Source: a virus. Taken from it: 42,733 bases of DNA. The number at the start of each line of letters is the position of its first letter. Position 1 is the stretch's first letter. The stretch lies in IMG/VR virus record IMGVR_UViG_3300050335_000080; one strand, 5' to 3'. The position numbers and the translations under genes were made by a program. A model generated the notes under the pieces. It had not been told where the DNA came from. It did no database searches and saw nothing but the letters and a program-made list of their open reading frames with translations. Below are positions 671 to 18,100 of the stretch, one piece after another.

Positions 671-883
671 TCATCCCGCGGCCTCCTCTTCCAGTCTCTT
701 GACCAGCTCGTGGATGTCCTTTTTCCGCCAGCAGGTGACCTTAACCGTCTTCAATTTGACCGGCTGGGGAAACTTCCCCTCCTTCACCCCGCTCCACCAG
801 GCGCTTTTCCCAAAAGGAACCATCTGCAGAATCTGCTTCAAGCGATAGAACCCAAGTTCCTCGATGACCGTCACTGGCTTCAC
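671..883 (-). CDS. AlpA-family (excisionase-like) DNA-binding regulator
   Basis: 70 aa. FYRLKQILQMVPFGKSAWWSGVKEGKFPQPVKL matches the AlpA/phage CP4-57 regulatory HTH pattern. This family usually partners P4-type integrases. Confidence 0.75.
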   Translation of the reverse strand: MKPVTVIEELGFYRLKQILQMVPFGKSAWWSGVKEGKFPQPVKLKTVKVTCWRKKDIHELVKRLEEEAAG

Positions 884-921
884 CTCCCACTCATCTTTTT
901 ATTTCCCGTAGAAAAGGCTCC

Positions 922-1368
922 TCAGTTCCTGTACTTGCCCCTCATGGCCATAGCGTCCAGGGCCTTTGCCCTAGCCTCGGCCAGAAGAGAATCCAGCTGG
1001 GTTTCGTCTTCCACGTTGCCGATAATTTCGATGCCGATCTTCGTTGGTGAAATATGCACCGAAAAGGTATTGGCAGCTTCGCTCCTCATGTCCATCGTCG
1101 TATCCCTCCATTCGTCATCAGCTTCAAAAATCACGCGAACCTCCCAGGTATTAGGCTGGGGCCCATTGAAAAACTCAGTTTTTGAGATACGTAGAGATTC
1201 ACAAAGCTTTTCTATGTCAGATGCGACTGGTTCACGTTCTCCTCGCTCCCAGTTGCTTAAGGTTACCGGGTGAACCTTAATCAATTCACTTAATTGCGCT
1301 TGGGTTAGTCCAAGCCTCTTTCGGGCCCAAGATATGTGCCTGCCAATGCCCCTTTTCAAGCTCAACAC
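922..1368 (-). CDS. XRE-family HTH regulator and first gene of the minus-strand early operon (Cro/early-regulator candidate)
   Basis: RKRLGLTQAQLSELIKVHPVTLSNWERGEREP is a canonical XRE HTH. GTG/TTG start at 1368/1365, preceded by AAGGGG. A consensus promoter lies immediately upstream. Confidence 0.8.
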   Translation of the reverse strand: MLSLKRGIGRHISWARKRLGLTQAQLSELIKVHPVTLSNWERGEREPVASDIEKLCESLRISKTEFFNGPQPNTWEVRVIFEADDEWRDTTMDMRSEAANTFSVHISPTKIGIEIIGNVEDETQLDSLLAEARAKALDAMAMRGKYRN

Positions 1369-1383
1369 CCCCTTGTTTTCTGG

Positions 1384-1412
1384 ATTATAGCTTAGCGAAA
1401 AGACATAGTCAA
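1384..1412 (-). promoter_or_regulatory. Near-consensus sigma70-type promoter driving the minus-strand XRE/early operon
   Basis: The minus strand reads TTGACT (1412..1407), a 17-nt spacer, then TATAAT (1389..1384). This lies about 16 nt upstream of the GTG at 1368. Confidence 0.7.
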
Positions 1413-1457
1413 TACAACTCTTAGTCGTAACGCTTAGATTTTCTCGCCAAGTGTTTA

Positions 1458-1486
1458 TTGTGTTTATTTAGTCGCTTGGCTATTCT
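1458..1486 (+). promoter_or_regulatory. Candidate divergent promoter for the plus-strand repressor operon
   Basis: TTGTGT (1458-1463), a 17-nt spacer, then TATTCT (1481-1486). It sits about 20 nt upstream of the ATG at 1506. It is weaker than its divergent partner. TTAGTCG occurs at 1421 and 1468, and TAGTC three times, as possible operator half-sites. Confidence 0.4.
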
Positions 1487-1505
1487 GCTTAATGAAATAG
1501 GGGTG

Positions 1506-1901
1506 ATGGTTTTGTCTATAGCTGAAAGGATTAAGGAGGAAAGGGAGCGTGCCGGGCTTACCCAAGAAGAACTTGCTGCGAAAGCAAGGGTGAACCCTGT
1601 GACTATTTCTGTTTGGGAAAACGGAAAGCGAACTCCGAAAATTGCTTCTTTGCAAAAACTTGCAACAGCTTTAGATATAAGCGTTGATGTTTTCATTGTG
1701 GATCTTCCCCAAGAATTGCCATCACAACCTGTAGGTCGGGTTGGTAGAGGGAAAGACAGTGGTAGTGAAGATGACGACATTTATATATCAAAAATTACTC
1801 TTATGCTTCAAGGTATGTCAGAAGAACAAAAACTTAAAGTGCTTCAATACGTTTTTGACCAAAAACAAATAAACGATTTGAAGCGCCAGCGGGAGGGATA
1901 G
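1506..1901 (+). CDS. XRE-family HTH regulator (CI-like repressor candidate), first gene of the only plus-strand operon
   Basis: ERIKEERERAGLTQEELAAKARVNPVTISVWENGKRTP is an XRE HTH. ATG at 1506 follows AGGGG. It is divergent from the 922..1368 regulator, a classic switch layout. Confidence 0.8.
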   Translation: MVLSIAERIKEERERAGLTQEELAAKARVNPVTISVWENGKRTPKIASLQKLATALDISVDVFIVDLPQELPSQPVGRVGRGKDSGSEDDDIYISKITLMLQGMSEEQKLKVLQYVFDQKQINDLKRQREG

Positions 1902-1913
1902 GGAGGTTTTTTG

Positions 1914-2291
1914 ATGGGTAAAAAAATCACAGTTTTCTTGGGCTTGGGTCTATTGGTTTTCTTTCTTACTCTAATCATAGACGCTCTTTTGGCAATGGCT
2001 CTCGATTCAAAAACTTCTCCGATGCCTTCTTTTTGGATAGTTTCGATAGCTTTGCTCTGGGTTGTGGTTTTTGCAGAAACCCTACCTATAAGAGTAAGGT
2101 TTTTCAGCTACTTGAAAGGTGTAGGGGTTTTTCTTGCTTGTTATTTACTGTTCCCATTGGCTACGGGGTTAATCTTTAAGGCGTCGCCCGGGTTGTTTCT
2201 TTCGAATTTATGGTTAATGGCGTTTTTCAACAGAGGTCTTCCAGGCCTTATTGCCATCTATTTCACCTACAACACGGTAAAAAAAACATAA
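1914..2291 (+). CDS. Polytopic membrane protein (about 4 TM helices), co-operonic with the repressor
   Basis: GGGAGG RBS at 1901-1906, ATG at 1914. Four hydrophobic stretches are visible: ITVFLGLGLLVFFLTLIIDALLAMAL, FWIVSIALLWVVVFA, VGVFLACYLLFPLATGLIF and LWLMAFF..GLIAIYF. One sampled line gave about 33% GC. Confidence 0.7.
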   Translation: MGKKITVFLGLGLLVFFLTLIIDALLAMALDSKTSPMPSFWIVSIALLWVVVFAETLPIRVRFFSYLKGVGVFLACYLLFPLATGLIFKASPGLFLSNLWLMAFFNRGLPGLIAIYFTYNTVKKT

Positions 2292-2336
2292 TTACCTAAG
2301 CGCCCGAAACGACTGAGATAAAAGGGAGGGTTTTCT

Positions 2337-3737
2337 TTGCCGCCGAACATGTCCCTTGAATCCTATCTGCTGTATGGTCTTGGGAGGGGAGACGTCTGGC
2401 TTTTTATTTTCATCTTTCTCGCCGTTCTCTGGGGGCTGATTTCCCTTCTGACCCACAGGGCTGAACAGCGCGGAATGCAAAAAGAAAGAGATCTTTGGAA
2501 AAAGTGCAAAGAATCGTCTTCGACCGATCAGGATTACGTCTCTTATCTTGAAAAAGAGAAAGACAGTTTTGAACAGCGGCTGGAAGAAGAGAAAATAAGG
2601 AACTGGGAACTGCATGAAGAAAACAAAAAGCTTGCCGCGGCCCTTCAGAAAAACATACCGCAATTTCTTGAGCAGAAGGTTCTCGGATTGCAAAAACTGC
2701 TGGCCGAGGCAGGAAAAAAGAACCGTGACCTTGAGAGCACCCTCCTTCAAGTAAGGAAGCGATATTTGGAAAGAGTGTCTGAGTTTAACGGAAAGATTGA
2801 TCAGCTCGAACAAGAAATAAAGCGCCTTGGACAAGAACCTTCAATGCGGCCCACGCCGCTTCCCCCAGTGCCGCCTGCCCCTCCTGTAGGGCCTCGCCAC
2901 GGCCCATTCCCCACCGGAAGAGACTATGAAAAAACCACGGCTCATCCCGCTCTTCTGGAACGAGAAAAGAAGACTCCCCCTCTTGCCGGCATCGATTTGT
3001 TCCCCGAGATCGAAAGGGATCCGCGATTCGTACAGTATTCCAATGATCTTTCCCGAAGCCCGAATGACGGCAAATGCATTTTGTGCAGGGAGTCAGTTGG
3101 AAGGGGGGATATTCTTCTGACGGACGGCAGGATGATCCACCAAAAATGTTTCGATCAGTGTTTTTCAAAACTGGATAACTTAAAAAGCGACAACGACGCC
3201 GATGCGTTTTTGAAAGAAAATCCTCAGGATGTCTTCCGCGCAAAATGGCTTTGCGTCCACTATCCTGATTATCCGCCAGATTGGATCTCCCGTAAAAAAA
3301 TGATCCTCGAGAGAGCCGACTACGAATGCGAAGAATGCGGCGAATTCGAAGACGAGCTTCATGTCCACCATAAACACCCACTCGGGGAAGGCGGAAACAA
3401 TTCTCTGTCCAACCTCCAATGCCTCTGCAAAGAATGCCATGAAGAAAAACACGGCAGAAAAACTGAGGGAATTTGGGTAAAAAGAAAGGACGCCATACAG
3501 AAGGCTATCGCCGATAAAGAGGACGTTGAATTCGATTACACAAGCCAGGAAGGAGAAAAAACGCATAGAAAAATTACTCCTCAACGTTTTGAAAACCGGC
3601 ACGGCTGGCTTCACGTGAAGGGATACTGCCACCTGCGGAACGCGGAGCGGACCTTCAATATCCGCAGAATGCGGAACCTTAGAGTCAAGGACGATGACGG
3701 CACCACCATAACTCTGTATCAAATGGCGCCCGATTAA
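2337..3737 (+). CDS. Membrane-anchored coiled-coil protein with a Cys/His finger, an HNH nuclease motif and a C-terminal WYL-like domain
   Basis: TTG start 5 nt after AAAGGGAGGG. Layout:
- TM helix, aa 19-39 (VWLFIFIFLAVLWGLISLLT)
- heptad-rich region, aa 45-165
- Pro-rich linker
- CILC..(x17)..HQKC finger
- HNH motif ECEECG..HVHHKHPLGEGGNNSLSNLQCLCKECHEEKHG (nt 3294-3461)
- WYL-like VEFDYTSQEGEKTHRKITPQRFENRHGWLHVKGYCHLRNAERTFNIRRMRNLRV (nt 3489-3692). Confidence 0.8.
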   Translation: MPPNMSLESYLLYGLGRGDVWLFIFIFLAVLWGLISLLTHRAEQRGMQKERDLWKKCKESSSTDQDYVSYLEKEKDSFEQRLEEEKIRNWELHEENKKLAAALQKNIPQFLEQKVLGLQKLLAEAGKKNRDLESTLLQVRKRYLERVSEFNGKIDQLEQEIKRLGQEPSMRPTPLPPVPPAPPVGPRHGPFPTGRDYEKTTAHPALLEREKKTPPLAGIDLFPEIERDPRFVQYSNDLSRSPNDGKCILCRESVGRGDILLTDGRMIHQKCFDQCFSKLDNLKSDNDADAFLKENPQDVFRAKWLCVHYPDYPPDWISRKKMILERADYECEECGEFEDELHVHHKHPLGEGGNNSLSNLQCLCKECHEEKHGRKTEGIWVKRKDAIQKAIADKEDVEFDYTSQEGEKTHRKITPQRFENRHGWLHVKGYCHLRNAERTFNIRRMRNLRVKDDDGTTITLYQMAPD

Positions 3738-3742
3738 AAACA

Positions 3743-3765
3743 GGCCCCGGGGATTTCCCGGGGCC
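3743..3765. terminator. Bidirectional intrinsic terminator between the convergent HNH-WYL gene and int
   Basis: Stem ggccccggg (3743-3751) and cccggggcc (3757-3765) with loop gattt. It is flanked by aaaaaca upstream and tttctcttt downstream. Confidence 0.75.
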
Positions 3766-3841
3766 TTTCTCTTTACCATATCGGTGACGCCACCGGAATG
3801 GTCATTCTTTTAGCTTCACCATTTTCCCGCCGGGAAAATGG

Positions 3842-4993
3842 TCACCCATCCGCCTGCGTGTCCAGCCAGTCCGCCCACCATTGCATCATCTTTTTCCGCT
3901 CCGGCAGGTACTCGGCGAAATTATAGGCCGCACGAACGTCGTCCTTCTCCGCGTGGGCCAGCTGCCGCTCGATCCAGTCCCGGTTCCACTGGTGCTCGTT
4001 GAGTATCGTGCTGGCCATGCTGCGGAACCCGTGCCCCGTGAATTCGTCCTGGGCGTATCCCAGGCGCCGGATGGCCGCGTTCGCCGTAGCGTCGCTCATG
4101 GGGCGGCTGGCCGTCCGATTCGACGGAAAGAGATATTTGCCACCTCCGGTATACAGCTCCGTCTCCCTGACTACCGCCGCCGCCTGGGTGGATAGAGGAA
4201 TAATATGCGGTCTGGGCATTTTCATTTTTTCCGCGGAAATCCGCCACTCCATTTTTTCCAGGTCGAACTCCGACCACTCTGCGTGGCGCAGATCCCCGGG
4301 ACGAACAAACGTGTAGGCCTGGAGAAGCAAGGCGCACCGCGTCCGCTCGGTATCCATTCCGCGGATGGCCCGCATGAGTGCCCCTATGCCCCGTGGATCG
4401 GTAATGGTCGGATGGTGCTGCGTCTTCACCGGCACCAGGGCGCCCCGGAGATCTCCCGCAGGATCGTGATCCACGGCGCCGATCGCCACGCCATAACGGA
4501 ACACCTGGCTGCACAGCTGGTTTACGCGGTGGGCCAGCTCCGGCGCGTTCCGCGACTCTATCTCCCGGGCGATCTTCAGGACATCTGCCGGAGAAATCAT
4601 GTTTGCCGATTTCCCTCCGATGGCCGGAAAAACGAGCCTCTCCAGCCTGGAGGTCTTTGTTCGCACCGTGATGGGTTTCATTACGGGGATAATCTTTGTT
4701 TTCAGCCATTCCCGAGCCAGAGATTCAAACGTCCTCCCCTGCGGCTTCGAGAAGGGATTATTGCCGATGGCCACCTGCAGCCGCACCTCGTCCCGAGCCT
4801 TTCGGGCGTCCTTCAGGCCGACTGCCGGGTACTTCCCCAGGGACCGCTTGAAGACACGCCCCTGAATTTGTATCTTCAGCCGCCAAAACTTGTCCCCGGA
4901 CGGCATAACCTCGATGGACAAACCCGCCTCGTCCAGGACCTCGTATCTCCGTTCCCGCGCAGCAAGATTCCTGATGCCTGTGTCCGTAAGCAT
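3842..4993 (-). CDS. int: Tyrosine recombinase/integrase, P4-like (DUF4102-type arm-binding N-terminus)
   Basis: The real start is probably the ATG at 4993 (MLTDTGIRNL...), after GGGGGAGGGG. The N-terminus reads RYEVLDEAGLSIEVMPSGDKFWRLK. Catalytic signatures are TFVRPGDLR, HGFRSMAST and LAHAEKDDVRAAY. Confidence 0.9.
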   Translation of the reverse strand: MLTDTGIRNLAARERRYEVLDEAGLSIEVMPSGDKFWRLKIQIQGRVFKRSLGKYPAVGLKDARKARDEVRLQVAIGNNPFSKPQGRTFESLAREWLKTKIIPVMKPITVRTKTSRLERLVFPAIGGKSANMISPADVLKIAREIESRNAPELAHRVNQLCSQVFRYGVAIGAVDHDPAGDLRGALVPVKTQHHPTITDPRGIGALMRAIRGMDTERTRCALLLQAYTFVRPGDLRHAEWSEFDLEKMEWRISAEKMKMPRPHIIPLSTQAAAVVRETELYTGGGKYLFPSNRTASRPMSDATANAAIRRLGYAQDEFTGHGFRSMASTILNEHQWNRDWIERQLAHAEKDDVRAAYNFAEYLPERKKMMQWWADWLDTQADG

Positions 4994-5283
4994 TTGCACC
5001 CCTCCCCCGCCCACACAAAAAGCCCGTTTTCCCTGTGGGCGATTTGTGGGCAAATATTGCGTGGATGTACATAGTTTATCACGGACACCCACGGAAGTTG
5101 AAGGGTATAAAAAAATCCGCCGTTGCAAGGCTTTAGGACATCCTTGGACAACTGCGGAAAGTGGGCTTGGTGCCGGGGGGGGGGATGGAAATAATTGCGC
5201 GGGAGTAGTATTTATAATTGTTTGGAGGCTTTTTAAATTTTGCCTGTGGGCGGTTTTACTTTTTAAGTCCACTCCAGGGCACT
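4994..5283. other. Non-coding region next to int and a probable attP region with candidate arm-type repeats
   Basis: No convincing ORF. The region is AT-richer than its flanks. CCTGTGGGCG occurs at 5032-5041 and 5243-5252, and TGTGGGC also at 5045-5051. No tRNA-like 3' fragment was recognised. Confidence 0.35.
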
Positions 5284-9837: not shown

Positions 9838-12138
9838 TTAGAAATTATCCGCTGTCATGTAAGTGCCTGAGAAAGTTACTGTCCCTTCTGAGATTGTCCA
9901 AGGTGTTGACATAACGCTATATGCACCTGTAGTTGCATCATATTTACGGAGATATATTGAAGTTCCTGATATCATAATCATAAGTTCTTCATTGTCAGCG
10001 TAAGTTAATCCTCCGCCTAAATATACATTTACTTTTTGTGCTATCTGAGACGCATAAGGCAAACCTGTCAAAATTGCAGCGGTAAGCACTGTGTTTACAG
10101 GTAATTCTACAACATAACTCACCATATTTCCCAAGCGTTCATAACGTGCAGTATATGTTCCAGTTATACCTGTTAAAGTAAAAGTGCCTTTTTCAAACAT
10201 TGTAAAAGTGTTAAACAGTTCATTAGTCTTAGTTGCTCCTGTTTTATCAGGCTGTGTTACAGGATTTTGTGAAATAGAGTATTTATAATCAGCAGTCTTA
10301 ATATAATTTCCTACAATATTAAGATTCTGTGCCTTAGTTGTGCTGTGAACCACTATACCATAAATAAACTCTTGCACACCGGGATTACTTGTGTATGGCT
10401 GAATCAGATTATTACTTATATTTCCGCTAAGACATTCCTTAACTATTATTCCCCCCTCATTCCAAATAGGAGGTGTGTTAATAGAATCCAGATAAGGGTG
10501 TATACAGCAGTTATGTATGTCAAAAGAATCACTATAATGTATAAAAATATCTCCTTTAAAATTACCTTCCAACATACTGTTTGCGATTTCAATACCTCTG
10601 GGCAATGCTTCTGTCTCAGTTTTTTGGATTTTAATACCATACCCACAACACAGAGATATGGTACAACCTCTAAAGCGTACTGAAGCACCTCCACCGACAT
10701 AACCATTAGAATGACAGCGTCTCAGCGAACAATCTGTAAATGTTAAAGAACCTGGTCTTGATTTAATTGCCTTAATGCCATCCCCAGAAATCATATTCAT
10801 ATAAATATTTTCAAAGGTACAAGCAGCTGTGGTATCTATATCATCCCGCCCTCCTGTAGTTTGACCTCCAATTACCAACCCATCACCATAAATATTTTCA
10901 ATGAGAATATCTTTAAAAGATGAATTCCATATTGCTCTTAGGTATAGACCTATGACAGGTGTTGTGTCTTCTTCATTTTTCCATCTGCCTTTAATGCATA
11001 TATTACTGAGACTGTTGTTAAATTGTGCTACAGGGTGTAGATCATAATAATCTGTTCGGTTATTTACATTCCCATCAAAGGATATAATAGGTTTTCCTGA
11101 AGGGAATAAAGCAGCCTGCCTGATAATTGTGTTATTTTTTGATTCCCCTGTAATACGTCTTCCATTTTTGACCCACATACCATACTCAGCAACGCTCAGG
11201 TATATGTCTTGATCATCAGTACCATATAACAATGTGTCGCTGACAAGGTAATCACCATTAGGGATAAACACGTCTCCTGCATCGACCGCTCTTTGGAGGG
11301 CTGCCGTATCATCGGTTACACCGTCACCTGTCGCTCCGAACCACCGTGCGTTGACTAGCAGGCGGTATCCAATTGCCACCGTCCCCTCCCCTCCGAATAT
11401 CTGCCATAGACCAGCGTCTATTGCGCCGTTGATGGTGAGTGTCGTGCCAACGGCTGGCTGTAACTGTCCTGCCCTTTTGAACGAGAGAGCCACGTTGCTT
11501 GGAATGGCGAGGTCAGCTGCTATAGGAATGGTGGTGGCTATAACGAGTGAAGCGTTGGACGCACCTATGGCAGCCAGTTTTGCTCGAAGGTCTGCCTCGT
11601 CTAGAACAATGTTGACATCGAGTTCGTCAGCTATAGCGGGGAGCATGTTGGCGTAGCCTTCAGCGGTTTCAGCTGCCGATATGGCGATGTCCCGCGCCTC
11701 GAGCAGTCCCTCGGCCGTCACCTCTTCACCCTCGTATCCCTCCCCCATTTTTACCGCCCGAGATACCGACTCGTCTATCTGCTGGATCATCATCACCAGC
11801 CGGTCCGTGTTGTCCTCCAGAGTCTCCGGGTAGAGGTTCGCCTGGTTCGACGGGTCGAAGAACTGCTGCCGGACATCCAGCAGCCGCAGGATCGTCAGTT
11901 TCTCTCCCGTCTCCAGGGGGCTCCCCGACGTGGGATAGGTCAGCGTCCCCGTCTCCGCATCGACGGAAAAGGCCGTCACCTCCGTCACCTCGCCCCGCAG
12001 GTTCGTTCTGAAGACGTGGATCAGCGACGTGTCCGGAGCCCCCGCGGCCGTGATCGGTAGATCAAAATCGTACGGCCAGTCCGTTGTCAGCCCGTTCCCC
12101 TCGTACACGTGTTTGTTGTAGTCCTTTGATACGGTCAT
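9838..12138 (-). CDS. Tailspike/depolymerase: podovirus tail-fibre N-terminal anchor plus a pectate-lyase-type right-handed beta-helix
   Basis: The N-terminus HVYEGNGLTTDWPYDFDL...LTILRLLDVRQ is typical of tail-fibre adaptor domains. ARWFGATGDGVTDDTAALQRAVDAGDVFIPNGDY is the Pectate_lyase_3 signature. RBS GAGGAGG. Confidence 0.85.
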   Translation of the reverse strand: MTVSKDYNKHVYEGNGLTTDWPYDFDLPITAAGAPDTSLIHVFRTNLRGEVTEVTAFSVDAETGTLTYPTSGSPLETGEKLTILRLLDVRQQFFDPSNQANLYPETLEDNTDRLVMMIQQIDESVSRAVKMGEGYEGEEVTAEGLLEARDIAISAAETAEGYANMLPAIADELDVNIVLDEADLRAKLAAIGASNASLVIATTIPIAADLAIPSNVALSFKRAGQLQPAVGTTLTINGAIDAGLWQIFGGEGTVAIGYRLLVNARWFGATGDGVTDDTAALQRAVDAGDVFIPNGDYLVSDTLLYGTDDQDIYLSVAEYGMWVKNGRRITGESKNNTIIRQAALFPSGKPIISFDGNVNNRTDYYDLHPVAQFNNSLSNICIKGRWKNEEDTTPVIGLYLRAIWNSSFKDILIENIYGDGLVIGGQTTGGRDDIDTTAACTFENIYMNMISGDGIKAIKSRPGSLTFTDCSLRRCHSNGYVGGGASVRFRGCTISLCCGYGIKIQKTETEALPRGIEIANSMLEGNFKGDIFIHYSDSFDIHNCCIHPYLDSINTPPIWNEGGIIVKECLSGNISNNLIQPYTSNPGVQEFIYGIVVHSTTKAQNLNIVGNYIKTADYKYSISQNPVTQPDKTGATKTNELFNTFTMFEKGTFTLTGITGTYTARYERLGNMVSYVVELPVNTVLTAAILTGLPYASQIAQKVNVYLGGGLTYADNEELMIMISGTSIYLRKYDATTGAYSVMSTPWTISEGTVTFSGTYMTADNF

Positions 12139-12181: not shown

Positions 12182-15100
12182 CTATCGTCTGCCCTTCTTC
12201 TTCGGCGGCGTGATCACGAAATCCCACGGGCTCCAGTCCCGGTCATTGTCCAGGTACCGGCCCACCGCCTTCATGGTCCGCATGATCTGGTTGCTCGGCA
12301 GCCCGAACACCGGCCCGGAGATCTCCACCAGATGCCCCGGGATCTTCTCCCAGTCCGGCTCGTCTCCCCCGAGACCCCATTCCGCAGTCTTCAGAAGATC
12401 AGTCATCACCTTGGCCGCCGCCGTCCCCGCCGACGCCATGGGGCTCATCCGGTAGGAGAACCCGGACGACGCAGCGTTCACCACGTCCCGCACAAGGATC
12501 AGCTGGGACGCGCCGTACTGCAGCGTGGAATTCAGAGCCCACCGCAGAATGTCGTCGGGCTCGTCCTCCTCCGGCCCCCGGCCGGACATGAGGTCCTCCA
12601 GGAGCGCCGGCAGCACGTACATGGTCAGGGCAAAGGCCGCCAACCTGGGGATGTCCCTCACCCCGTGGCCCCGGAACCACTGCTCCCTGGTCTGCTGGAA
12701 CATGGAGCCGAAGGCCGTGTAGAACATGGTCATGCTCTTCCATGCCGGGGATCCCTGCTGGATCGCCGCCAGGTCCTTCGCCGCCCCCGTGTTCTGGGTG
12801 CTGCGCACCACGAAGTCCGCGTACTCCAGCGCCTTCGCCTCGTCGCCGTTGAACTCCAGCATGCCCTTGTCCCAGGCGGCCGTCCACACCGGCAGGCTCA
12901 CCGCCATATCCATCCATCCAGCGAACAGGAAGAAGGTCTCCTGCACCGCGCTCCACCTGCCCCGCACCGGCGACGCTGTCACGGCCTCCATGGCCGCCTT
13001 CACGTCCCGGTCGAAAGACCGTACCCGGTCCCGCAGGTACTCCGACTTTCCGAAGGCGAAATCCCGCATCTCTCCCCACTGGAAAGGGTTCCGCCAGAAG
13101 TTGAACGCCGCCAGCGCCGTGCGCTTGTACCCCAGCACCTGGACGGCGGGGAACCACCCGAAGACCTGCTTCGCCGCCGAGGAGAGGGACCATCCCAGGA
13201 TGGCCGCCGACGTCCGCCCCATCACCTTCTGCATCATCTGCTCGCCGTAGTTCGACGGCGTACGGTAGGCGTTCGCCAGCCCGTTCACCCACGGCTGGAA
13301 CTGCTTGAAGGCCTCCATGCCTATGGAGCCGATGATGGTCTTCTGCACCTGGGGATCCGCCAGCAGCTTGTTCAGGTCCCGGATGACGGGGCGGAAGTAC
13401 AGGTCATGGAGGGCGTCCCGCAGGTGCTCCGTCTCAACGCCGAGGTCCAGCCGCAGCAGCCGCTTCCCCCGTTCGCCGTGGTGCCGCTCTTTCGTGTGGC
13501 CGCTCTTGGTGTGCGCCCTGCTTCCCTGGGGGGCGTAGAGGGCCTTCGACGTTTCTTTCTCGGACACCACGAAGTTGTCCCAGTTCGACTCGGGCCGGAA
13601 CTTCAACGTCATATACCCGCCCCGGTAGGTCACCCCGGAGGCGCTCGTCACCGGCAAGTGCTTCACCTTCTTCGGCGTCACCCCGGTGACCTTCTTCGAC
13701 ATGGCCGCGATATCTCCCCAGTACGATTCGTTCAGGTCCCACACCGCCTGGGCGACCTCGTAATCCTTCTCTTCCAGCACCTGGGAAAAGAGCTTTTCCA
13801 CTTCGGCGGATCCCATGCGGAAGGCCGCCCAGTACTCCTCGTCGCTGCCGTAGTGGATCCATCCCTTGCCGGAATTCCACACGGTCCGGTCGAACCCGTA
13901 GCCGAACACCACCTCTTCCCTGTTCTCCAGGGCGCCCCAGTTCAGCAGCAGGGCGATCACGTTCTCCCTGCTCAGCACCAGGGGCTTCCCCGTGGACGGG
14001 TCGAGCTGCTGGAGGGTGTATTTCTTCTTCGTCATCTCCCCCCGCTCCTCAGACGAATAGACCGAAAAGATCGTCTCGAGGCGGCTCTTCGCCTCCCGCA
14101 TCCGTTTCATCTCCGCCCGCTCCGCCTTCACCACGGGATCGAAGAACGTCAACCAGGCGACCGCCATGTCCTTGAATCCGTCCAGCCTCCGGAGGATGTG
14201 CTCCACCCGGTCCGAGGACGCCAGGTATCTCCCGATCACCCCCGCGCCCCGGTAGTCCGGGTCCAGGGGCGTCTCCTTCATTGTGCCGTGGACCGCCGTC
14301 ACCGAGGCCTCCAGGTCCGCCTTCGCCTTCGCGAAATCCGCCTCCCGCTCCGCCGCCAGCAGCTTGTTCCGGCTGCGGCCGAAGTAGTCGATGGCCTCCA
14401 CGGCCTCCACAAGTTCCCGGAACTCCGTCACCGTCAGGTCCTTCCAGGACATTTTCCGGTCCTTGTAGTCGTCGGTGATCAGCCATTTTGCCACCGGCAG
14501 CTCGGCCCCCTGGTTGTTCGGGTCCGCGCCGATCTGGGCATTCGCGGCCGCCACCCACTCCCCCAGGTGGGGACGGTCCCCGCTCAGCTCGTCCTCGCCG
14601 TTGAAGCCGTACCGCTCCGTCAGGCCCATGACCTGGGCGAAATGCTCCTCCCCGATCACCGCCCGGAGGCGCTTCCGGCCGCCCCAGTACTTCTTCAGGT
14701 GTTTCTCGGCCTTCTCCATCTCGTCCCGCGCCGCCAGGGACGCCTGGTACAGCGCCGTGGACATCATCTCCCGGTCCTTCGCCGCCAGGGACTCCTCGTA
14801 CCGTCCCTTCAGAGCCAGCTCGTAGGCCTCCCTGCCCGCCTTCCTCGCCGCCGCCAGGTACCGCGACGCCGCCCGGGCGTCCCGCACCCGCTTATCTGCG
14901 ATCAGCTGCTCCGCCACCTCGCGGTACGCCCGCACCTGGGCCGACATCTGCCGGGCCTGCTGGGCCGTGGTCTCCCAGGCGGACGGCTGGTCCTCCATCT
15001 GCTCCGGACCGAACTGGAGATCCCCGATCTTCCGCGCCAGAATCGCCTGCTCCAGGGCCAGCAGCCGGAGCCTCGCCTCGCCGGAGAGCATCTCCTCCGC

Positions 15101-18100
15101 GAGGGTTTGCATTGTTTCCCGGTCGGACGCCTTGTTCTCCAGGTCCCGGACCTCGGCGTCAAGCCGGGCGTTCAGCTCCGCCTCGAAGGGATTCCTCGCC
15201 TCCTCCGCCAGGAGCGCCTGCAGTTCCTCCACGCCCCCCAGCCCCAGCAGATCCGCCGCCGCTTCCATGGGCACCGTGCCCTCGGGTGACGTCAGCCGGG
15301 CGTTCGCCTCGCCGTACCGCTCGTCCGGGGCGAGGTTGTACCCCGTATCGGCGAACTGCAGCAGGTCGTCGTAGGCCTTCCACGCCGCCGATTCCCCCCG
15401 CATCGCCTCCCGAATCCCAGGTTCCGCCGCTTCCCTGCGCTTCCGTGCCTGCTCCCGGGTCTCGGCGCCCAGCTCCTGCAGCAGCACCGCCAGCAGCTTC
15501 GTCTTCGCCTCGGAAGCCGCCTTGTCGGCAGCCTCCCGGAGGGCGTCGGCCTCCACCGTGGGGATCCCCTGCTGGATCAGGCGGGTCCGCAGCCTCTCCG
15601 ACTCCCGGAGAGACCGCGCCTGGTCCACCTCCTCCTCGGAGGCCAGCATCCGGTCCATCACCGCCCGCACCTCGTCGGACAGCTCCACGTCGGGAGCGCC
15701 CTTCAGCGCCTTGTACACCTTCGCCAGCCACCGCTTGAAATTGTCGAATATCTGCCGGAGTGCCCGGCTTGGGGCCAGCCCCTCGAAGAGGTACTGCTCG
15801 AAGCCCCGCGCCCAGTACTCCTCCGCCGCAACTCTCACAGCGTCGGCCAGCACGGCGTCGGCTTCCTTTCCCGCCAGGGCGGCCCGCACGATCCCCGCCC
15901 CGTCGGGAGCGGCGAACAGTGCCCGGACATCCTCCGATACGGTGCCGTGCTTCACGATCCACTCCGCCAGGTCCCTCGCGTGGCCTCCCCACCAGCTCCG
16001 GACGACCTCCCAGTCGCCGGCCGTTCGGGAATCCGCCTTCCCTGCCCTCACCAGGGACTCCAGGTCCCACAGGAACAAATGCCCCAGCTCGTGAAGGAAC
16101 GTGCTCCGGTTCGCCTTGGGCGTCAGGGTGATGGTGATGCCCCTGTCGCTCCGGTTAATGAAGCCCTGGGTGGGATATTGCCGTCCTCCGGCGCTTTTCT
16201 GGTAATAAGTCTGCTGGATGGCGATGGCCTTATCGTCCCAGATGACATAATTTCGGCTGTCGCCGCTTCCATCTCTGGACAAGGCGTCAAGATATCGAAT
16301 GCCCTTGATCCCTACACCGTTGAGAATTTCCGAAGCAGCCTGCCGATCATCGGCATAATTCTTTCCGATCGTAAATCCGGCATCCTGCGCCCTGCCCACC
16401 AGCTGATTGTAAACTTCCTTTCCGGTGGGGTTGCCTTTTAACCAACTCTTTACATTGATGCCTTCGACGGTCTTCAGAGCCTTTCTTATTGCCTCCGGTT
16501 GCTCGTTCAGAGGCTTGTCCCAGTCCAGCAGAACGTTGTCGTCTGGGATGTCAACCTCATAGATCTGTCCCGGACCCGGCCTTTCAATACGTATCTCATG
16601 ACCACGGAGCGATTCGACAAAATTGATGGCGTCGTCATACTGCTTCAGGCGGTTTGGAGAAAGATTCGGATTGCCTTCCTTGCGTCCACGCAGATATTCC
16701 TTCGCCCTGTCTATATCTCCGTCGGCGCCATTGAGCGCTGCGCGGATCATGGCCGGGAATGGAGCGGACGGCATTTTCTCTTTCAAGGAGGTGATGGAAG
16801 CTCCATCGATGAGAATGTCTGTCGGCTGCCTGTTGGTAACGCTCGTCCTATAATATTCCGCGACCTCTTTCTTGTCCGCGAAGTACAGCCCCCACCCGAA
16901 AGCCTGTGCTCTCTCCCCAGTTCCGATATATTCAGTCGAAAACTCGGTGAATCTGTGGGGTGAGCCATGGTAGGCCGTCTGGTACCGCATATCCTTCACG
17001 CCGGCGTCGAACCGCTGGGACAGTGGAATCACATTCCCCTGGTCGTCCCGGGTGATGCCGTCGGCCTTCTTCACCTGCCAGGGGAAGAAGGGGATCCACA
17101 CCGTATGCCCTTCCCCGGTGTACTTGCCCCCCTGGTCCTTGATGCCGTCGTACCCCATCCTGTGCAGCTCCCGGGACACCCAGTCGGGAACGCTCGTCCA
17201 CGCGAAGGACGTGCCGTCCCGCCGGTCCTGCGCCAGCAGCTCTATCCATTCCCTGCCGCTGAACCGCCGCTTGTCCCACTCGTCCACCACGTTTGCCGAG
17301 CCCCGTTTGCCCTTCGACGCCGCCTCCAGGGCGGCAAAATCATCGTCGGAAATAGCGCTCGTATCGAAGGGGGTCCGGATTGCCAGGTGAGCCTCCAGCA
17401 CCCCGGGCTGTTCCAGCCAGGGGGAGTCATACACCACGCCGTCCAGCCCCGCCAGCCGCAGAATCTCGAGGAACCGCTCCTCCTGGTCGAACAGCTCCCC
17501 ACTGTCCAGCCAGATCTCCACCGCCGCCGCCAGAACGTTCCCCCGCTTCTCCCGGAGCACAAAATCCCAGTGGCTCTTGTTCGTCATGCCGTACTCGTCG
17601 TCGGTGAGCCTGAACTCGTCCGCGACTTCTCCGTTTTCGTCCGTGTTCACCACGTGGGGCAGCTTGGCCGCCAGTTCCCGCCGCTTGTCCAGGGACAGGT
17701 ACAGCCACGCCTGGTCGATGGTCTTCGGCTTGCCCCGCCCCACGGCCACCTTGAACCATCCGGTGTACGACTCAGGGATCTCGATGCTTGTATCCGCCTT
17801 GTTCTTCGAGTAGTTCTCCGCGATAGTGGGGTCATCGGTGAAAAACGGCATGGGGCCGCTCGTCGCCCGCTCCGGCTTCAGCTCGTTCCCCAGCCGGTCA
17901 ATCCGCTTCGAGCCGTGGAACACATGCTGCACCGTGAAACCGGCTTCTTTTGCCGCCTCGTCCACCATCCCCTGGGCTGTTTCCATATCCCCGGCTTCCA
18001 CCGCCGCCAGGTACTCCGCATCAAGGGCGGCTCCGTCCTGGTACAGCGTCAGCTCAGTGTTCTTATCCGCCGCGTCCATAAGCTCCATGGCCGTCGGAGG

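What the first reader, a model, noticed from the sequence alone, without database searches (positions are those of the whole stretch)
1914..3737. Repressor-linked two-gene cassette: a 4-TM protein plus a membrane-tethered coiled-coil/zinc-finger/HNH/WYL-like nuclease, a candidate exclusion or abortive-infection system
These are the only plus-strand genes apart from the CI-like repressor. They appear co-transcribed with it, with short gaps, their own RBSs and a shared terminator at 3743-3765. They should therefore be expressed in the lysogen.

Sampled lines give 33-53% GC here against about 62% for the backbone, which suggests a horizontally acquired moron.

The 466-aa protein has an architecture I do not recognise as a described system:
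- an N-terminal TM anchor
- about 120 aa of coiled coil
- a Pro-rich linker
- a CxxC...HxxC finger
- a canonical HNH nuclease
- a C-terminal WYL-like beta-barrel

WYL domains act as ligand or nucleic-acid sensors in many defence regulators. A membrane-tethered nuclease gated by a WYL sensor could attack incoming phage DNA at the envelope, or trigger abortive infection, with the 4-TM partner acting as a sensor or pore.
Basis: partly seen in the sequence, partly recalled or inferred. Interest (0 to 1): 0.8.

Follow-up and report, generated by a model that had tools for sequence, protein, structure and literature searches.

The report
Prophage membrane-tethered HNH-WYL nuclease gene
A temperate phage of the anaerobe Aminivibrio carries, right behind its repressor gene, one gene for a DNA-cutting enzyme predicted to hang from the inner face of the cell membrane on a long stalk; it most likely protects the lysogen from incoming foreign DNA, while the small membrane-protein gene beside it is not a fixed partner.

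Summary
The sequence observation holds. ORFs 1914-2291 (125 aa, four predicted helices) and 2337-3737 (466 aa) follow the HTH repressor on the + strand. They have their own GGGAGG ribosome-binding sites and one strong terminator (3742-3766). GC is 40-49% against about 61% for the backbone.

The 466-aa protein reads: N-terminal TM anchor, long helix, Pro-rich disordered linker, CxxC..HxxC finger, intact HNH (Pfam E 2e-10) and a true WYL domain (E 4e-13; folds like BrxR, CapW and DriD).

The "two-gene cassette" reading fails. In three related Aminivibrio prophages the nuclease gene follows the repressor directly, without the 4-TM gene. That gene is an orphan that belongs to the swapped immunity module.

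The finger-HNH-WYL core belongs to a large uncharacterised family of mostly soluble proteins of about 265 aa (at least 339 clusters). Their N-terminal add-ons vary (TPR, ankyrin, zinc ribbons). Only the prophage clade has the TM-stalk. That module also occurs alone, in frame, in the same slot of another element.

Best reading: a single-gene, lysogen-expressed, membrane-tethered nuclease for superinfection defence, analogous to SNIPE but not homologous to it. No function was tested.

The parts
922..1368 (-). Cro-like HTH_3 regulator, divergent from the repressor. Its N-terminal part differs between related prophages.
   Evidence: Pfam HTH_3 E 2.7e-13. Strong promoter-like site TTGACT-17-TATAAT at 1412-1384 on the - strand. 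Homology to L001 ends at 1165.
1506..1901 (+). CI-like HTH repressor. The ORF is open from 1458; the likely start is ATG 1506. It has no S24 peptidase domain. It is the first gene of the lysogeny operon.
   Evidence: Pfam HTH_3 E 1.2e-17 and PHROG transcriptional repressor families. Sequence read.
1914..2291 (+). Orphan small membrane protein with four predicted helices. It is a facultative passenger of the immunity module, not a conserved partner of the nuclease.
   Evidence: RBS GGGAGG 1901-1906. Hydropathy segments. Single-sequence AF2 model with helices 2-30, 37-56, 62-88 and 92-124, pLDDT 68. No family hit in Pfam, PHROGs, PADLOC or NCBIfam. Only itself found in the 5.8e9-protein search. 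Absent from L001-L003 and present in L019.
2324..2329 (+). Ribosome-binding site GGGAGG of the nuclease gene. DNA homology to the related prophages resumes only 16-38 nt upstream of the start codon, so no conserved promoter of its own is evident.
2337..3737 (+). 466-aa membrane-tethered finger-HNH-WYL nuclease (whole gene).
2394..2450 (+). Single transmembrane anchor, aa 20-38 (VWLFIFIFLAVLWGLISLL). Predicted topology is N-out, C-in.
   Evidence: Kyte-Doolittle peak 2.7-2.9. The N flank has 1 K/R and net charge -1; the C flank has 7 K/R and net charge +4. P0005 has an unrelated sequence but also a hydrophobic N-terminus followed by KKKK.
2454..2831 (+). Helical stalk, aa 40-165. The distal half (aa 91-165) is a recombination-swapped variable segment.
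   Evidence: AF2 helices 19-60 and 64-165. Identity to P0002 and P0003 is 28-33% in aa 91-165 against 86-100% in flanking segments. blastn breaks at 2609-2792 and 2598-3040. Heptad test not significant.
2832..2975 (+). Pro-rich disordered leash, aa 166-213.
   Evidence: pLDDT 35-41. 21% Pro in aa 175-245.
3069..3236 (+). Conserved CxxC...HxxC zinc finger (C247, C250, H268, C271) plus two helices. It starts the core shared with the soluble family.
   Evidence: Invariant or nearly invariant columns in A1. No relative found in PDB by sequence or in PHROGs.
3258..3455 (+). YPDYPPDW motif and HNH nuclease domain (Pfam aa 331-373). The Cys4 zinc site (C331, C334, C364, C367) and the catalytic residues H344/H345, N359, H368 and H372 are intact.
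   Evidence: Pfam HNH E 2.3e-10. Invariant columns. Partial PADLOC ZorE-type HNH hits at E 8e-12. PDB relatives: McrA, IscB and the Gme HNH nickase.
3489..3686 (+). WYL domain, aa 385-450. It keeps the arginine/cysteine groove used for ssDNA binding in the Pif1 WYL domain.
   Evidence: Pfam WYL E 3.8e-13. Foldseek matches to BrxR, PafBC, CapW and DriD-ssDNA with probability 1.0. Profile hit to the WYL domain of thermophile Pif1 structures 8bnv/8bns at E 5e-16. R411, C431 and R438 are invariant and align with TePif1 R470, C494 and R501 (bioRxiv 10.1101/163188).
3742..3766 (.). Bidirectional intrinsic terminator that closes the lysogeny operon and the convergent integrase gene.
   Evidence: Conserved in L021.
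3842..5272 (-). Tyrosine integrase. The ORF is open to 5272; the homologues are called as 383 aa. The attP core lies near 5168-5183.
   Evidence: Pfam Arm-DNA-bind_3, Phage_int_M and Phage_integrase. Homology to prophages L001 and L002 stops at window position 5183, inside their tRNA-Leu(CAA).

Best explanation
**What it is.** Gene 2337-3737 alone is a lysogen-expressed, single-gene defence or superinfection-exclusion module of a temperate Aminivibrio podophage. The 4-TM gene at 1914-2291 is an unrelated, dispensable passenger of the repressor module.

**Shown by sequence and comparison**
- The gene is co-oriented with the repressor and has its own RBS but no conserved promoter of its own.
- Its product has one N-terminal TM segment. 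The charge distribution predicts a periplasmic N-terminus and a cytoplasmic remainder.
- After the anchor come a helical stalk of about 125 residues, a Pro-rich disordered leash of about 50 residues, and a compact head.
- The head consists of a zinc finger, a catalytically intact Cys4-stabilised HNH domain, and a WYL barrel that keeps its positively charged groove.

**Inferred**
- The anchor keeps an otherwise dangerous DNase in a shell under the inner membrane. That shell is away from most of the nucleoid and is where foreign DNA emerges.
- The WYL domain (and perhaps the finger) binds single-stranded or partly unwound incoming DNA and licenses HNH nicking or cleavage.
- The prophage's own DNA never enters through the membrane in the lysogen, so it is spared.
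- The swapped distal stalk may set target specificity, or it may only be a spacer.
For: - **Position.** The gene sits between the repressor and the integrase, 16-45 nt after the repressor, in L001, L002 and L003. Those loci have three different repressors, so the gene is kept while the immunity type changes.
- **Transcription signals.** There is no + strand terminator before 3742.
- **Foreign composition.**
- **Intact HNH and WYL signatures.**
- **Anchor-plus-stalk is kept despite sequence loss.** P0005 shares only 17-20% identity with P0001 in the N-terminal segments but still has a hydrophobic N-terminus followed by KKKK.
- **The anchor is a specific add-on.** Of 159 family proteins scanned (the 160 sequences held minus the unrelated 4-TM protein), only the prophage clade (P0001-3, P0005) has an N-terminal TM-like segment. 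One further member, P0048, has an internal hydrophobic segment at aa 57-74.
- **Other members carry different N-terminal add-ons.** TPR, ankyrin and extra zinc ribbons occur at the same position, the pattern of a conserved warhead with exchangeable targeting modules.
- **Precedent.** In SNIPE, an N-out single TM tethers a nuclease. Removing the TM makes it toxic through chromosome cleavage, and its homologues have hypervariable N-terminal regions (bioRxiv 10.1101/2025.11.03.685801).
- **Second precedent.** ZorE, an HNH nickase, works when recruited to the membrane (PMC11890865).
Against: - No phenotype, localisation or nuclease activity was or could be measured.
- The stalk plus leash could span tens of nanometres, so tethering may not keep the head away from the nucleoid.
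- Soluble members of the same family sit in ordinary-looking contexts: after recN, after mrdAB, and in a Pelagibacter genome. In nine loci (101 neighbouring ORFs) there was no clear defence-island enrichment. The core may therefore have a non-defence role such as repair.
- The family is almost absent from viral collections.
- WYL domains mostly act as ssDNA-triggered switches in regulators, which fits an abortive-infection design as well as an entry-site design.
- A nuclease-less allele (P0161) persists on 14 contigs, so the nuclease is dispensable in at least one element.
Confidence: 0.5

Rival explanations
1. An ssDNA-gated abortive-infection toxin. The WYL domain senses ssDNA made by replicating or damaged DNA, as in CapW, DriD and PafBC. 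It then switches on the HNH domain, which nicks or degrades all DNA within reach, killing or arresting the infected lysogen. The membrane anchor only lowers basal toxicity.
For: The WYL fold matches CapW-ssDNA, DriD-ssDNA and PafBC. In those proteins ssDNA is the activating ligand (PMC11804915; PMC9186387 listed). The groove residues are invariant. Most family members are soluble, so they must be regulated by something other than location. ZorE-type HNH nickases damage the host chromosome and give population-level immunity.
Against: The closest WYL relative by sequence is the Pif1 accessory ssDNA-binding module, which is a substrate-binding domain rather than a switch. The prophage's own induction would produce the same signal. 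This reading does not explain why only the prophage clade gained an anchor plus stalk.
Confidence: 0.2
2. One reading: a two-gene system in which the 4-TM protein is the sensor or pore and the tethered nuclease is the effector, in the manner of Zorya or Kiwa.
For: The two genes are adjacent, co-oriented and 45 nt apart, with no terminator between them. The pair recurs in L019 with a different stalk allele of the nuclease.
Against: The 4-TM gene is missing in L001, L002 and L003, where the nuclease gene directly follows the repressor. tblastn finds no copy elsewhere in those loci. It has no homologues and no MotA/MotB, KwaA or other PADLOC hit. It lies in the block that is swapped with the repressor.
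Confidence: 0.08
3. A blocker of incoming single-stranded DNA from natural transformation or conjugation. An ssDNA-binding nuclease held at the inner membrane would destroy DNA that enters as single strands. This would protect the prophage from being cured by recombination or displaced by rival elements.
For: The isolated Pif1 WYL domain binds ssDNA but not dsDNA. The predicted position is on the cytoplasmic face of the membrane. The gene is expressed from the lysogeny operon.
Against: There is no evidence that Aminivibrio is naturally competent. There is no link to competence or conjugation genes in any locus. The idea is pure inference.
Confidence: 0.07
4. A phage life-cycle enzyme or a selfish nuclease rather than defence. 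Examples would be an HNH that assists terminase, helps induction, degrades host DNA after induction, or acts as a homing endonuclease that merely persists.
For: HNH proteins in phages are most often homing or packaging endonucleases (PHROG hits). One soluble family member lies between two IS6-family copies (L004), which hints at mobility.
Against: The gene is on the opposite strand and far from the terminase gene (33167-35719), inside the lysogeny operon. Its membrane anchor and foreign GC do not fit a core life-cycle role. It is dispensable, as shown by the P0161 allele in a different element. The phage collections hold no homologue.
Confidence: 0.1

Closest known systems
[quoted passage not shown]
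   Same: It is a single-gene system. It has one N-terminal TM segment with N-out topology, an elongated cytoplasmic part, a DNA-binding domain and a C-terminal-half nuclease. Its nuclease core is conserved while its N-terminal region is hypervariable, and some homologues lack a TM (compared).
   Different: There is no sequence or domain homology. This protein has HNH instead of GIY-YIG, and WYL plus a zinc finger instead of DUF4041. It is encoded in a prophage immunity operon. Only a small clade of its family is membrane-anchored. No experimental data exist.
ZorE, the HNH nickase effector of type II Zorya (PMC11890865)
   Same: The HNH domain is the closest defence-system match (PADLOC E 8e-12 over aa 306-371). 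ZorE acts when brought to the membrane.
   Different: The NCBIfam ZorE model scores 29.9 bits against a cut-off of 600. There is no ZorA or ZorB. ZorE is soluble and is recruited, not covalently anchored. ZorE has no WYL domain.
WYL-domain sensors and regulators (BrxR, CapW, PafBC, DriD) and the Pif1 WYL ssDNA-binding module
   Same: Same Sm-like barrel with a conserved Arg groove. ssDNA is the established ligand in several of them.
   Different: Those proteins are wHTH-WYL-WCX transcription factors or helicases. Here there is no HTH and no WCX, and the output domain is a nuclease in the same polypeptide.
WYL-HNH fusions listed by Makarova et al. 2014 (PMC4012209)
   Same: The same two-domain combination was noted there as one of several WYL-enzyme fusions.
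   Different: The mention is a single line. No family definition, zinc finger, membrane-anchored clade, genomic context or function was given. No paper in the library uses 'HNH-WYL' or 'WYL-HNH'.
Prophage morons or superinfection-exclusion genes placed between the repressor and the integrase/att (for example lambda rexAB and lactococcal/streptococcal Sie and Ltp; from my own knowledge, not tested here)
   Same: Same genomic slot, co-transcription with the repressor, membrane association and foreign base composition.
   Different: The classical examples are small membrane proteins or lipoproteins without a nuclease. This gene carries an enzymatic warhead. The short allele P0161 (TM plus stalk only) looks more like them.

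Membership tests
HNH endonuclease (PF01844) | Match to the family profile above the gathering score. | tested here: met
   40.9 bits against a cut-off of 21.4, E 2.3e-10, aa 331-373.
HNH endonuclease (PF01844) | Catalytic His, Asn and His residues and the Cys4 zinc site are present. | tested here: met
   H344/H345, N359, H368, H372 and C331, C334, C364, C367 are invariant in 16 homologues.
WYL domain (PF13280) | Profile match and an Sm/SH3-like barrel fold. | tested here: met
   49.7 bits against a cut-off of 21.8. AF2 strands 397-460 with pLDDT 84-93. Foldseek matches to BrxR, CapW, DriD and PafBC with probability 1.0.
WYL domain (PF13280) | Conserved positively charged ligand groove. | tested here: met
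   R411, C431, R438 and R444 are invariant. Three of the four TePif1 channel residues are aligned and kept; the fourth is N441.
SNIPE | N-terminal membrane anchor with cytoplasmic nuclease. | tested here: met
   Prediction only: hydropathy and the positive-inside rule.
SNIPE | DUF4041 domain. | tested here: not met
   No such hit in Pfam at E<=1.
SNIPE | GIY-YIG nuclease domain. | tested here: not met
   The nuclease is HNH. No GIY-YIG hit in Pfam, PADLOC or NCBIfam.
SNIPE | Cleaves phage DNA during injection; the TM-less form is toxic. | not testable with these tools
   Needs experiments.
Type II Zorya (ZorA-ZorB-ZorE) | Full-length ZorE match. | tested here: not met
   NCBIfam NF041791 scores 29.9 bits against a cut-off of 600. 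Only the HNH part aligns.
Type II Zorya (ZorA-ZorB-ZorE) | Adjacent MotA/MotB-like ZorAB genes. | tested here: not met
   The neighbours are the repressor, the orphan 4-TM gene with no family hit, and the integrase.
Kiwa (KwaA membrane protein plus KwaB) | Matches to KwaA and KwaB (DUF4868). | tested here: not met
   No PADLOC hit for the 4-TM protein, and no Kwa hit for the nuclease.
WYL transcription factors (BrxR, CapW, PafBC, DriD type) | N-terminal wHTH and C-terminal WCX domain flanking the WYL domain. | tested here: not met
   No HTH or WCX hit. The protein ends 16 residues after the WYL domain.
Finger-HNH-WYL core family (unnamed; defined here by alignment A1) | CxxC..HxxC finger, [YF]PDYPPDW motif, HNH and WYL in this order. 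| tested here: met
   All are present and invariant. 339 representative clusters at E<1e-30, most matching end to end.
   Present in two of five loci. The 4-TM gene has no homologues.
Prophage lysogeny-operon moron or exclusion gene | Located between the repressor and the integrase/att, same strand as the repressor, no intervening terminator, atypical composition. | tested here: met
Prophage lysogeny-operon moron or exclusion gene | Expression in the lysogen and protection against superinfection. | not testable with these tools
   Needs transcriptomes and phage challenge.

The most novel reading that the evidence does not exclude
The finger-HNH-WYL core is the warhead of a widespread, so far unrecognised class of single-gene immune nucleases gated or guided by ssDNA. 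Their exchangeable N-terminal modules (TM-stalk, TPR, ankyrin, zinc ribbons) decide where or on what they act. In Aminivibrio prophages the TM-stalk is itself an autonomous exclusion or targeting module: it occurs alone as P0161 in the same slot. It would place the warhead at the site of DNA entry. That would make this a second, independently evolved solution to the SNIPE principle of telling self from non-self by location.
Probability: 0.3. Interest if true: 0.75.

Novelty: new variant of a known kind. Interest (0 to 1): 0.55.

Why it matters
**If the reading is right**
- Spatial self/non-self discrimination by a membrane-anchored nuclease, so far shown experimentally only for SNIPE, would have evolved at least twice from unrelated parts.
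- It would also show that prophages deploy this mechanism from the repressor operon.
- A first function would be assigned to a large uncharacterised family (at least 339 clusters at 50% identity) that couples a WYL ssDNA-binding barrel directly to an HNH nuclease. This would add a new output type for WYL domains beyond transcription control.

**Why it is testable**
- The natural allele series invites direct genetic tests. It comprises full-length proteins with three different stalk segments, a clade member with an unrelated anchor, and an in-frame nuclease-less form.
- The finding also adds a defence candidate from Synergistota, a phylum with almost no phage biology.

Tried and rejected
**Partner and family searches**
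- Looked for a conserved partner of the nuclease. There is none: the 4-TM gene is absent in three of five loci and has no homologues.
- Tested membership in known defence systems with PADLOC, NCBIfam and PHROGs. Only domain-level hits came back (WYL, ZorE-type HNH, IscB HNH), and no full-length model matched.
- Searched phage records (INPHARED, tblastn) and IMG/VR. There was no hit in the first and two 36-aa fragments in the second. The single-protein metagenome scan added only a 1-kb contig (L019) and one weak hit.
- Foldseek against BFVD found only separate WYL or HNH viral proteins, none with the combined architecture.

**Tests on the protein itself**
- A heptad-periodicity Fourier test for the coiled-coil claim was not significant at period 3.5. 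I therefore call the segment a helical stalk.
- PHROG scans of the TM-stalk, the finger region and P0161 gave no family. The sub-threshold DUF5472 hit over the TM region was disregarded as hydrophobic bias.

**Neighbourhood test**
- A PADLOC scan of 101 ORFs around nine soluble family members gave a few mostly generic hits: an RtcR-like sigma-54 activator, SMC-like ATPase hits probably from the RecN ORF (the scan does not report which ORF matched), and one WYL regulator. There was no clear defence-island signal, so the test is inconclusive.

**Readings considered and rejected**
- Packaging HNH: rejected on position and strand.
- Secreted or periplasmic nuclease: rejected because of the positive-inside charge pattern and the many zinc-binding cysteines in the head (inference).

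**Literature**
- Text searches for 'HNH-WYL' and 'WYL-HNH' found no paper.
Full report
**1. Observation**

The window is a whole 42.7-kb contig. At its left end, three + strand genes lie between a divergent cro-like HTH gene (922-1368, - strand) and a convergent tyrosine integrase (3842-5272, - strand):
- an HTH_3 repressor (1458/1506-1901);
- a 125-aa hydrophobic ORF (1914-2291);
- a 466-aa ORF (2337-3737).

The second and third ORFs are each preceded by GGGAGG at a 7-nt spacing, and the gaps are 12 nt and 45 nt. The only strong + strand terminator-like hairpin in 800-4000 is at 3742-3766.

GC is mostly 0.39-0.46 across about 1200-3600, with a local rise to 0.54-0.56 at about 2700-3150. The backbone is above 0.60. 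GC3 of the nuclease gene is 0.52 against 0.8-0.9 in the structural genes. The other long + strand ORFs in the window have the GC1>GC3 signature of antisense shadows. The described features are therefore real. The low-GC tract also includes the repressor and part of the cro-like gene.

**2. Anatomy of the 466-aa protein**

- *Domains.* Pfam gives HNH (aa 331-373, E 2.3e-10) and WYL (aa 385-450, E 3.8e-13), both above the gathering score.
- *Anchor.* Hydropathy shows one TM-like segment at aa 20-38. It is flanked by a nearly uncharged N-tail and a strongly basic C-flank: 1 versus 7 K/R residues. By the positive-inside rule this predicts N-out and C-in. The cysteine-rich zinc sites in the head also fit a cytoplasmic location (inference).
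- *Model.* An AlphaFold2 model built on 16 homologues has mean pLDDT 80.5. It shows helices 19-60 and 64-165, a disordered Pro-rich segment at 166-213, and a confident head at 215-460.
- *Conserved residues.* Across the 16 homologues the invariant or nearly invariant columns are the finger (C247, C250, H268, C271), the motif Y312-P-P-D-W316, the HNH zinc and catalytic residues (C331, C334, H344, H345, N359, C364, C367, H368, H372), and the WYL residues Y401, R411, P415, C431, R438, F440 and R444.
- *Structural relatives.* Foldseek places the C-terminal barrel with BrxR, PafBC, CapW and ssDNA-bound DriD, and the HNH domain with the Gme nickase and McrA.
- *WYL groove.* By profile, the best solved relative of the WYL part is the WYL domain of thermophile Pif1 helicases 8bnv/8bns (E 5e-16; PMC9964779). 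In TePif1 the residues R470, C494, R501 and R504 line the ssDNA-binding channel, and the isolated domain binds ssDNA but not dsDNA (bioRxiv 10.1101/163188). Through the 8bnv alignment these map to R411, C431, R438 and N441. Three of the four are invariant in this family.
- *Stalk.* A crude Fourier test did not find heptad periodicity in helix 64-165. 'Coiled coil' therefore remains unproven.

**3. The 4-TM gene is not a partner**

Full-length homologues P0002, P0003 and P0005 (59-73% identity) lie in related prophages L001, L002 and L003. In each, the nuclease gene follows the repressor directly, with gaps of 45, 16 and 30 nt, and no membrane-protein gene lies between them. tblastn finds no copy of the 4-TM protein in any fetched locus.

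The 4-TM protein matches only itself among 5.8 billion proteins and hits no family library. DNA comparison shows that homology between the window and L001 stops at 1165 and resumes at 2321, 16 nt before the nuclease start codon. The repressor plus the 4-TM gene therefore form the swapped immunity block.

The 4-TM gene does recur, 96% identical, in a 1-kb contig (L019), upstream of a nuclease gene that carries the P0002-type stalk. A single-sequence AF2 model gives four helices at pLDDT 68. I conclude that it is probably a real small membrane protein, but a facultative passenger.

**4. Conserved position and mosaicism**

The three prophages carry three different repressors (177 aa, 184 aa, and 245 aa with an S24 peptidase domain), yet all keep the nuclease gene in the slot between repressor and integrase. 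Homology upstream of the gene covers only the RBS. Expression should therefore depend on read-through from the repressor promoter, which means expression in the lysogen (inference).

Within the gene, identity to P0002 and P0003 is 86-100% in most segments but 28-33% in aa 91-165. The HNH segment is 65% identical to P0002 against 100% to P0003. This points to intragenic recombination. P0005 has an unrelated N-terminal sequence (17-20% identity) that is still a hydrophobic segment followed by KKKK. The architecture is thus kept where the sequence is not.

**5. The wider family**

A profile search of 1.84 billion representative proteins found 339 clusters at E<1e-30. Most are 255-300 aa and match end to end. 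Of the 159 family proteins held (160 sequences minus the unrelated 4-TM protein), only the prophage clade has an N-terminal TM-like segment; P0048 has an internal hydrophobic segment at aa 57-74.

Longer members carry TPR repeats (P0050), ankyrin repeats (P0160) or extra zinc ribbons (P0010, P0114) at the N-terminus.

Genome hits span Kordiimonadales, Geobacteraceae, Erysipelotrichaceae, Kiritimatiellales, Pelagibacteraceae and other groups. No neighbour is conserved. Contexts vary:
- between two IS6-family copies next to a WYL-WCX regulator and a metallophosphoesterase (L004);
- among Gp49 and HEPN toxin-type genes (L005);
- near a ParE toxin-antitoxin pair (L013);
- but also directly after an ORF whose N-terminus looks RecN-like (L008, not confirmed by a family search), after ORFs I read as mrdA/mrdB from their N-termini (L010), and in a Pelagibacter genome (L009).

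A PADLOC scan of 101 neighbouring ORFs gave only scattered, mostly generic hits. A defence role for the soluble family is therefore plausible but not established.

**6. A natural nuclease-less allele**

Searching with the N-terminal 245 aa found P0161 (155 aa). It has the TM and the stalk and ends at the start of the Pro-rich leash. It occupies the same slot (HTH repressor, then P0161, then integrase) in a different integrative element next to smpB, on 14 contigs.

At the DNA level it equals the P0003 gene minus exactly 825 nt (275 codons, in frame). It shares the last few codons and the terminator. Either the nuclease head was deleted, or it was inserted into an older TM-stalk gene. In both cases the protein is modular, and the TM-stalk can persist alone.

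**7. Host and phage**

Host genes flanking L002 and L021 belong to Aminivibrio (Synergistota). The window encodes T7-like podovirus structural genes and a large terminase. Homology to the integrated copies ends at window position 5183, inside their tRNA-Leu(CAA). The window is therefore the excised or circular phage form, with attP near 5168-5183.

**8. Mechanism**

*Most likely (confidence about 0.5).* This is a single-gene, lysogen-expressed nuclease anchored N-out in the inner membrane. Its finger-HNH-WYL head hangs on a stalk plus leash and attacks DNA that enters the cell, while the resident prophage is spared because its DNA never enters that way.

*Shown:* gene position, domain identity, intact catalytic and groove residues, and the predicted anchor.

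*Inferred:* expression in the lysogen, topology, substrate, and the protective effect.

*Precedents.* The logic follows SNIPE, where an N-out TM tethers a GIY-YIG nuclease, loss of the TM makes it toxic, and N-terminal regions are hypervariable. It also follows ZorE, an HNH nickase that acts after recruitment to the membrane.

*Main rival (0.2).* An ssDNA-triggered abortive-infection nuclease, by analogy with the ssDNA-activated WYL regulators.

*Lesser rivals.* The two-gene model (0.08), an anti-transformation or anti-conjugation ssDNA nuclease (0.07), and a life-cycle or selfish nuclease (0.1).

**9. Comparison and novelty**

The protein is not a member of SNIPE: it has no DUF4041 and no GIY-YIG domain. 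It is not a Zorya II component: the ZorE model scores 29.9 bits against a cut-off of 600, and there is no ZorAB. It is not Kiwa. It is not a WYL transcription factor, because it has no HTH and no WCX domain.

WYL-HNH fusions were listed in one line in 2014 (PMC4012209). No paper in the library names such a protein, and no curated model covers it. I rate it a new variant of a known kind: a membrane-tethered defence nuclease built from different parts, resting on a large uncharacterised core family. Interest is moderate (0.55). The case is coherent and testable, but it rests entirely on sequence inference.

Noticed in passing
window 12182-22669 (-): A single 3495-aa ORF with high GC3 (0.83). It carries ddrB-like ParB, ART-PolyVal (ADP-ribosyltransferase) and LPD22 domains. 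This makes it a giant 'polyvalent protein' of the kind proposed to be injected to counter host defences, here in a temperate podophage of Synergistota.
   Followed up: partly
L021 7001-7468 (also L022-L024): P0161 is a 155-aa protein made only of the TM anchor and stalk of the nuclease. It sits in the same slot between repressor and integrase, in a different integrative element next to smpB in Aminivibrio. Its gene equals the P0003 gene minus exactly 275 codons in frame.
   Followed up: yes
window ~5168-5183; L001 11926-12011; L002 8357-8442: Homology between the window and the integrated prophages ends inside tRNA-Leu(CAA). The window is therefore the excised or circular phage genome with attP next to the integrase, and the host attachment site is the 3' end of that tRNA.
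   Followed up: partly
window 9838-12138 (-): The tail-spike or tail-fibre gene has GC3 0.41 against 0.8-0.9 in the neighbouring structural genes. Only its N-terminal 130 aa match tail-protein families. It looks like a recently swapped host-range module.
   Followed up: no
L003 9412-12774: In this related prophage the nuclease gene is followed by three more + strand genes: a 162-aa unknown, a 573-aa AAA_15/AAA_21 ATPase (phrog_3940) and a D12-class adenine methyltransferase. This may be a second cargo or defence module in the same slot.
   Followed up: partly
L001 9542-10483: Two adjacent ORFs (205 aa and 68 aa) between the nuclease gene and the integrase match successive parts of one PHROG family (phrog_3243, 293 positions). 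They look like a split, probably decaying, moron gene.
   Followed up: partly
L004 6964-9693 (Kordiimonadales bacterium IMCC3096, CP018227.1): A soluble finger-HNH-WYL gene lies between two direct copies of an IS6-family (DDE_Tnp_IS240) transposase, like a composite transposon. Next to it are a WYL-WCX regulator and a metallophosphoesterase.
   Followed up: partly
window 1451-1468 and 2273-2282: A perfect tandem 9-mer (GTGTTTATT x2) sits just upstream of the repressor coding region and may be an operator or promoter element. The 4-TM gene ends in an A8 run, and the L019 copy has a different C-terminus there, so the run may be slippage-prone.
   Followed up: no
L022: This contig carries the repressor, P0161, integrase and smpB block twice in inverted orientation. 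It is probably an assembly artefact (palindromic contig) rather than biology.
   Followed up: no
P0015, P0016 and P0048 (family members): Some soluble-family members carry a Gly-rich, glycine-zipper-like or hydrophobic segment in the linker between the zinc finger and the HNH domain (for example GVGAGIGGIVGTFLGGPIGTFIGAGLGG). This could be a different way of associating with the membrane.
   Followed up: no
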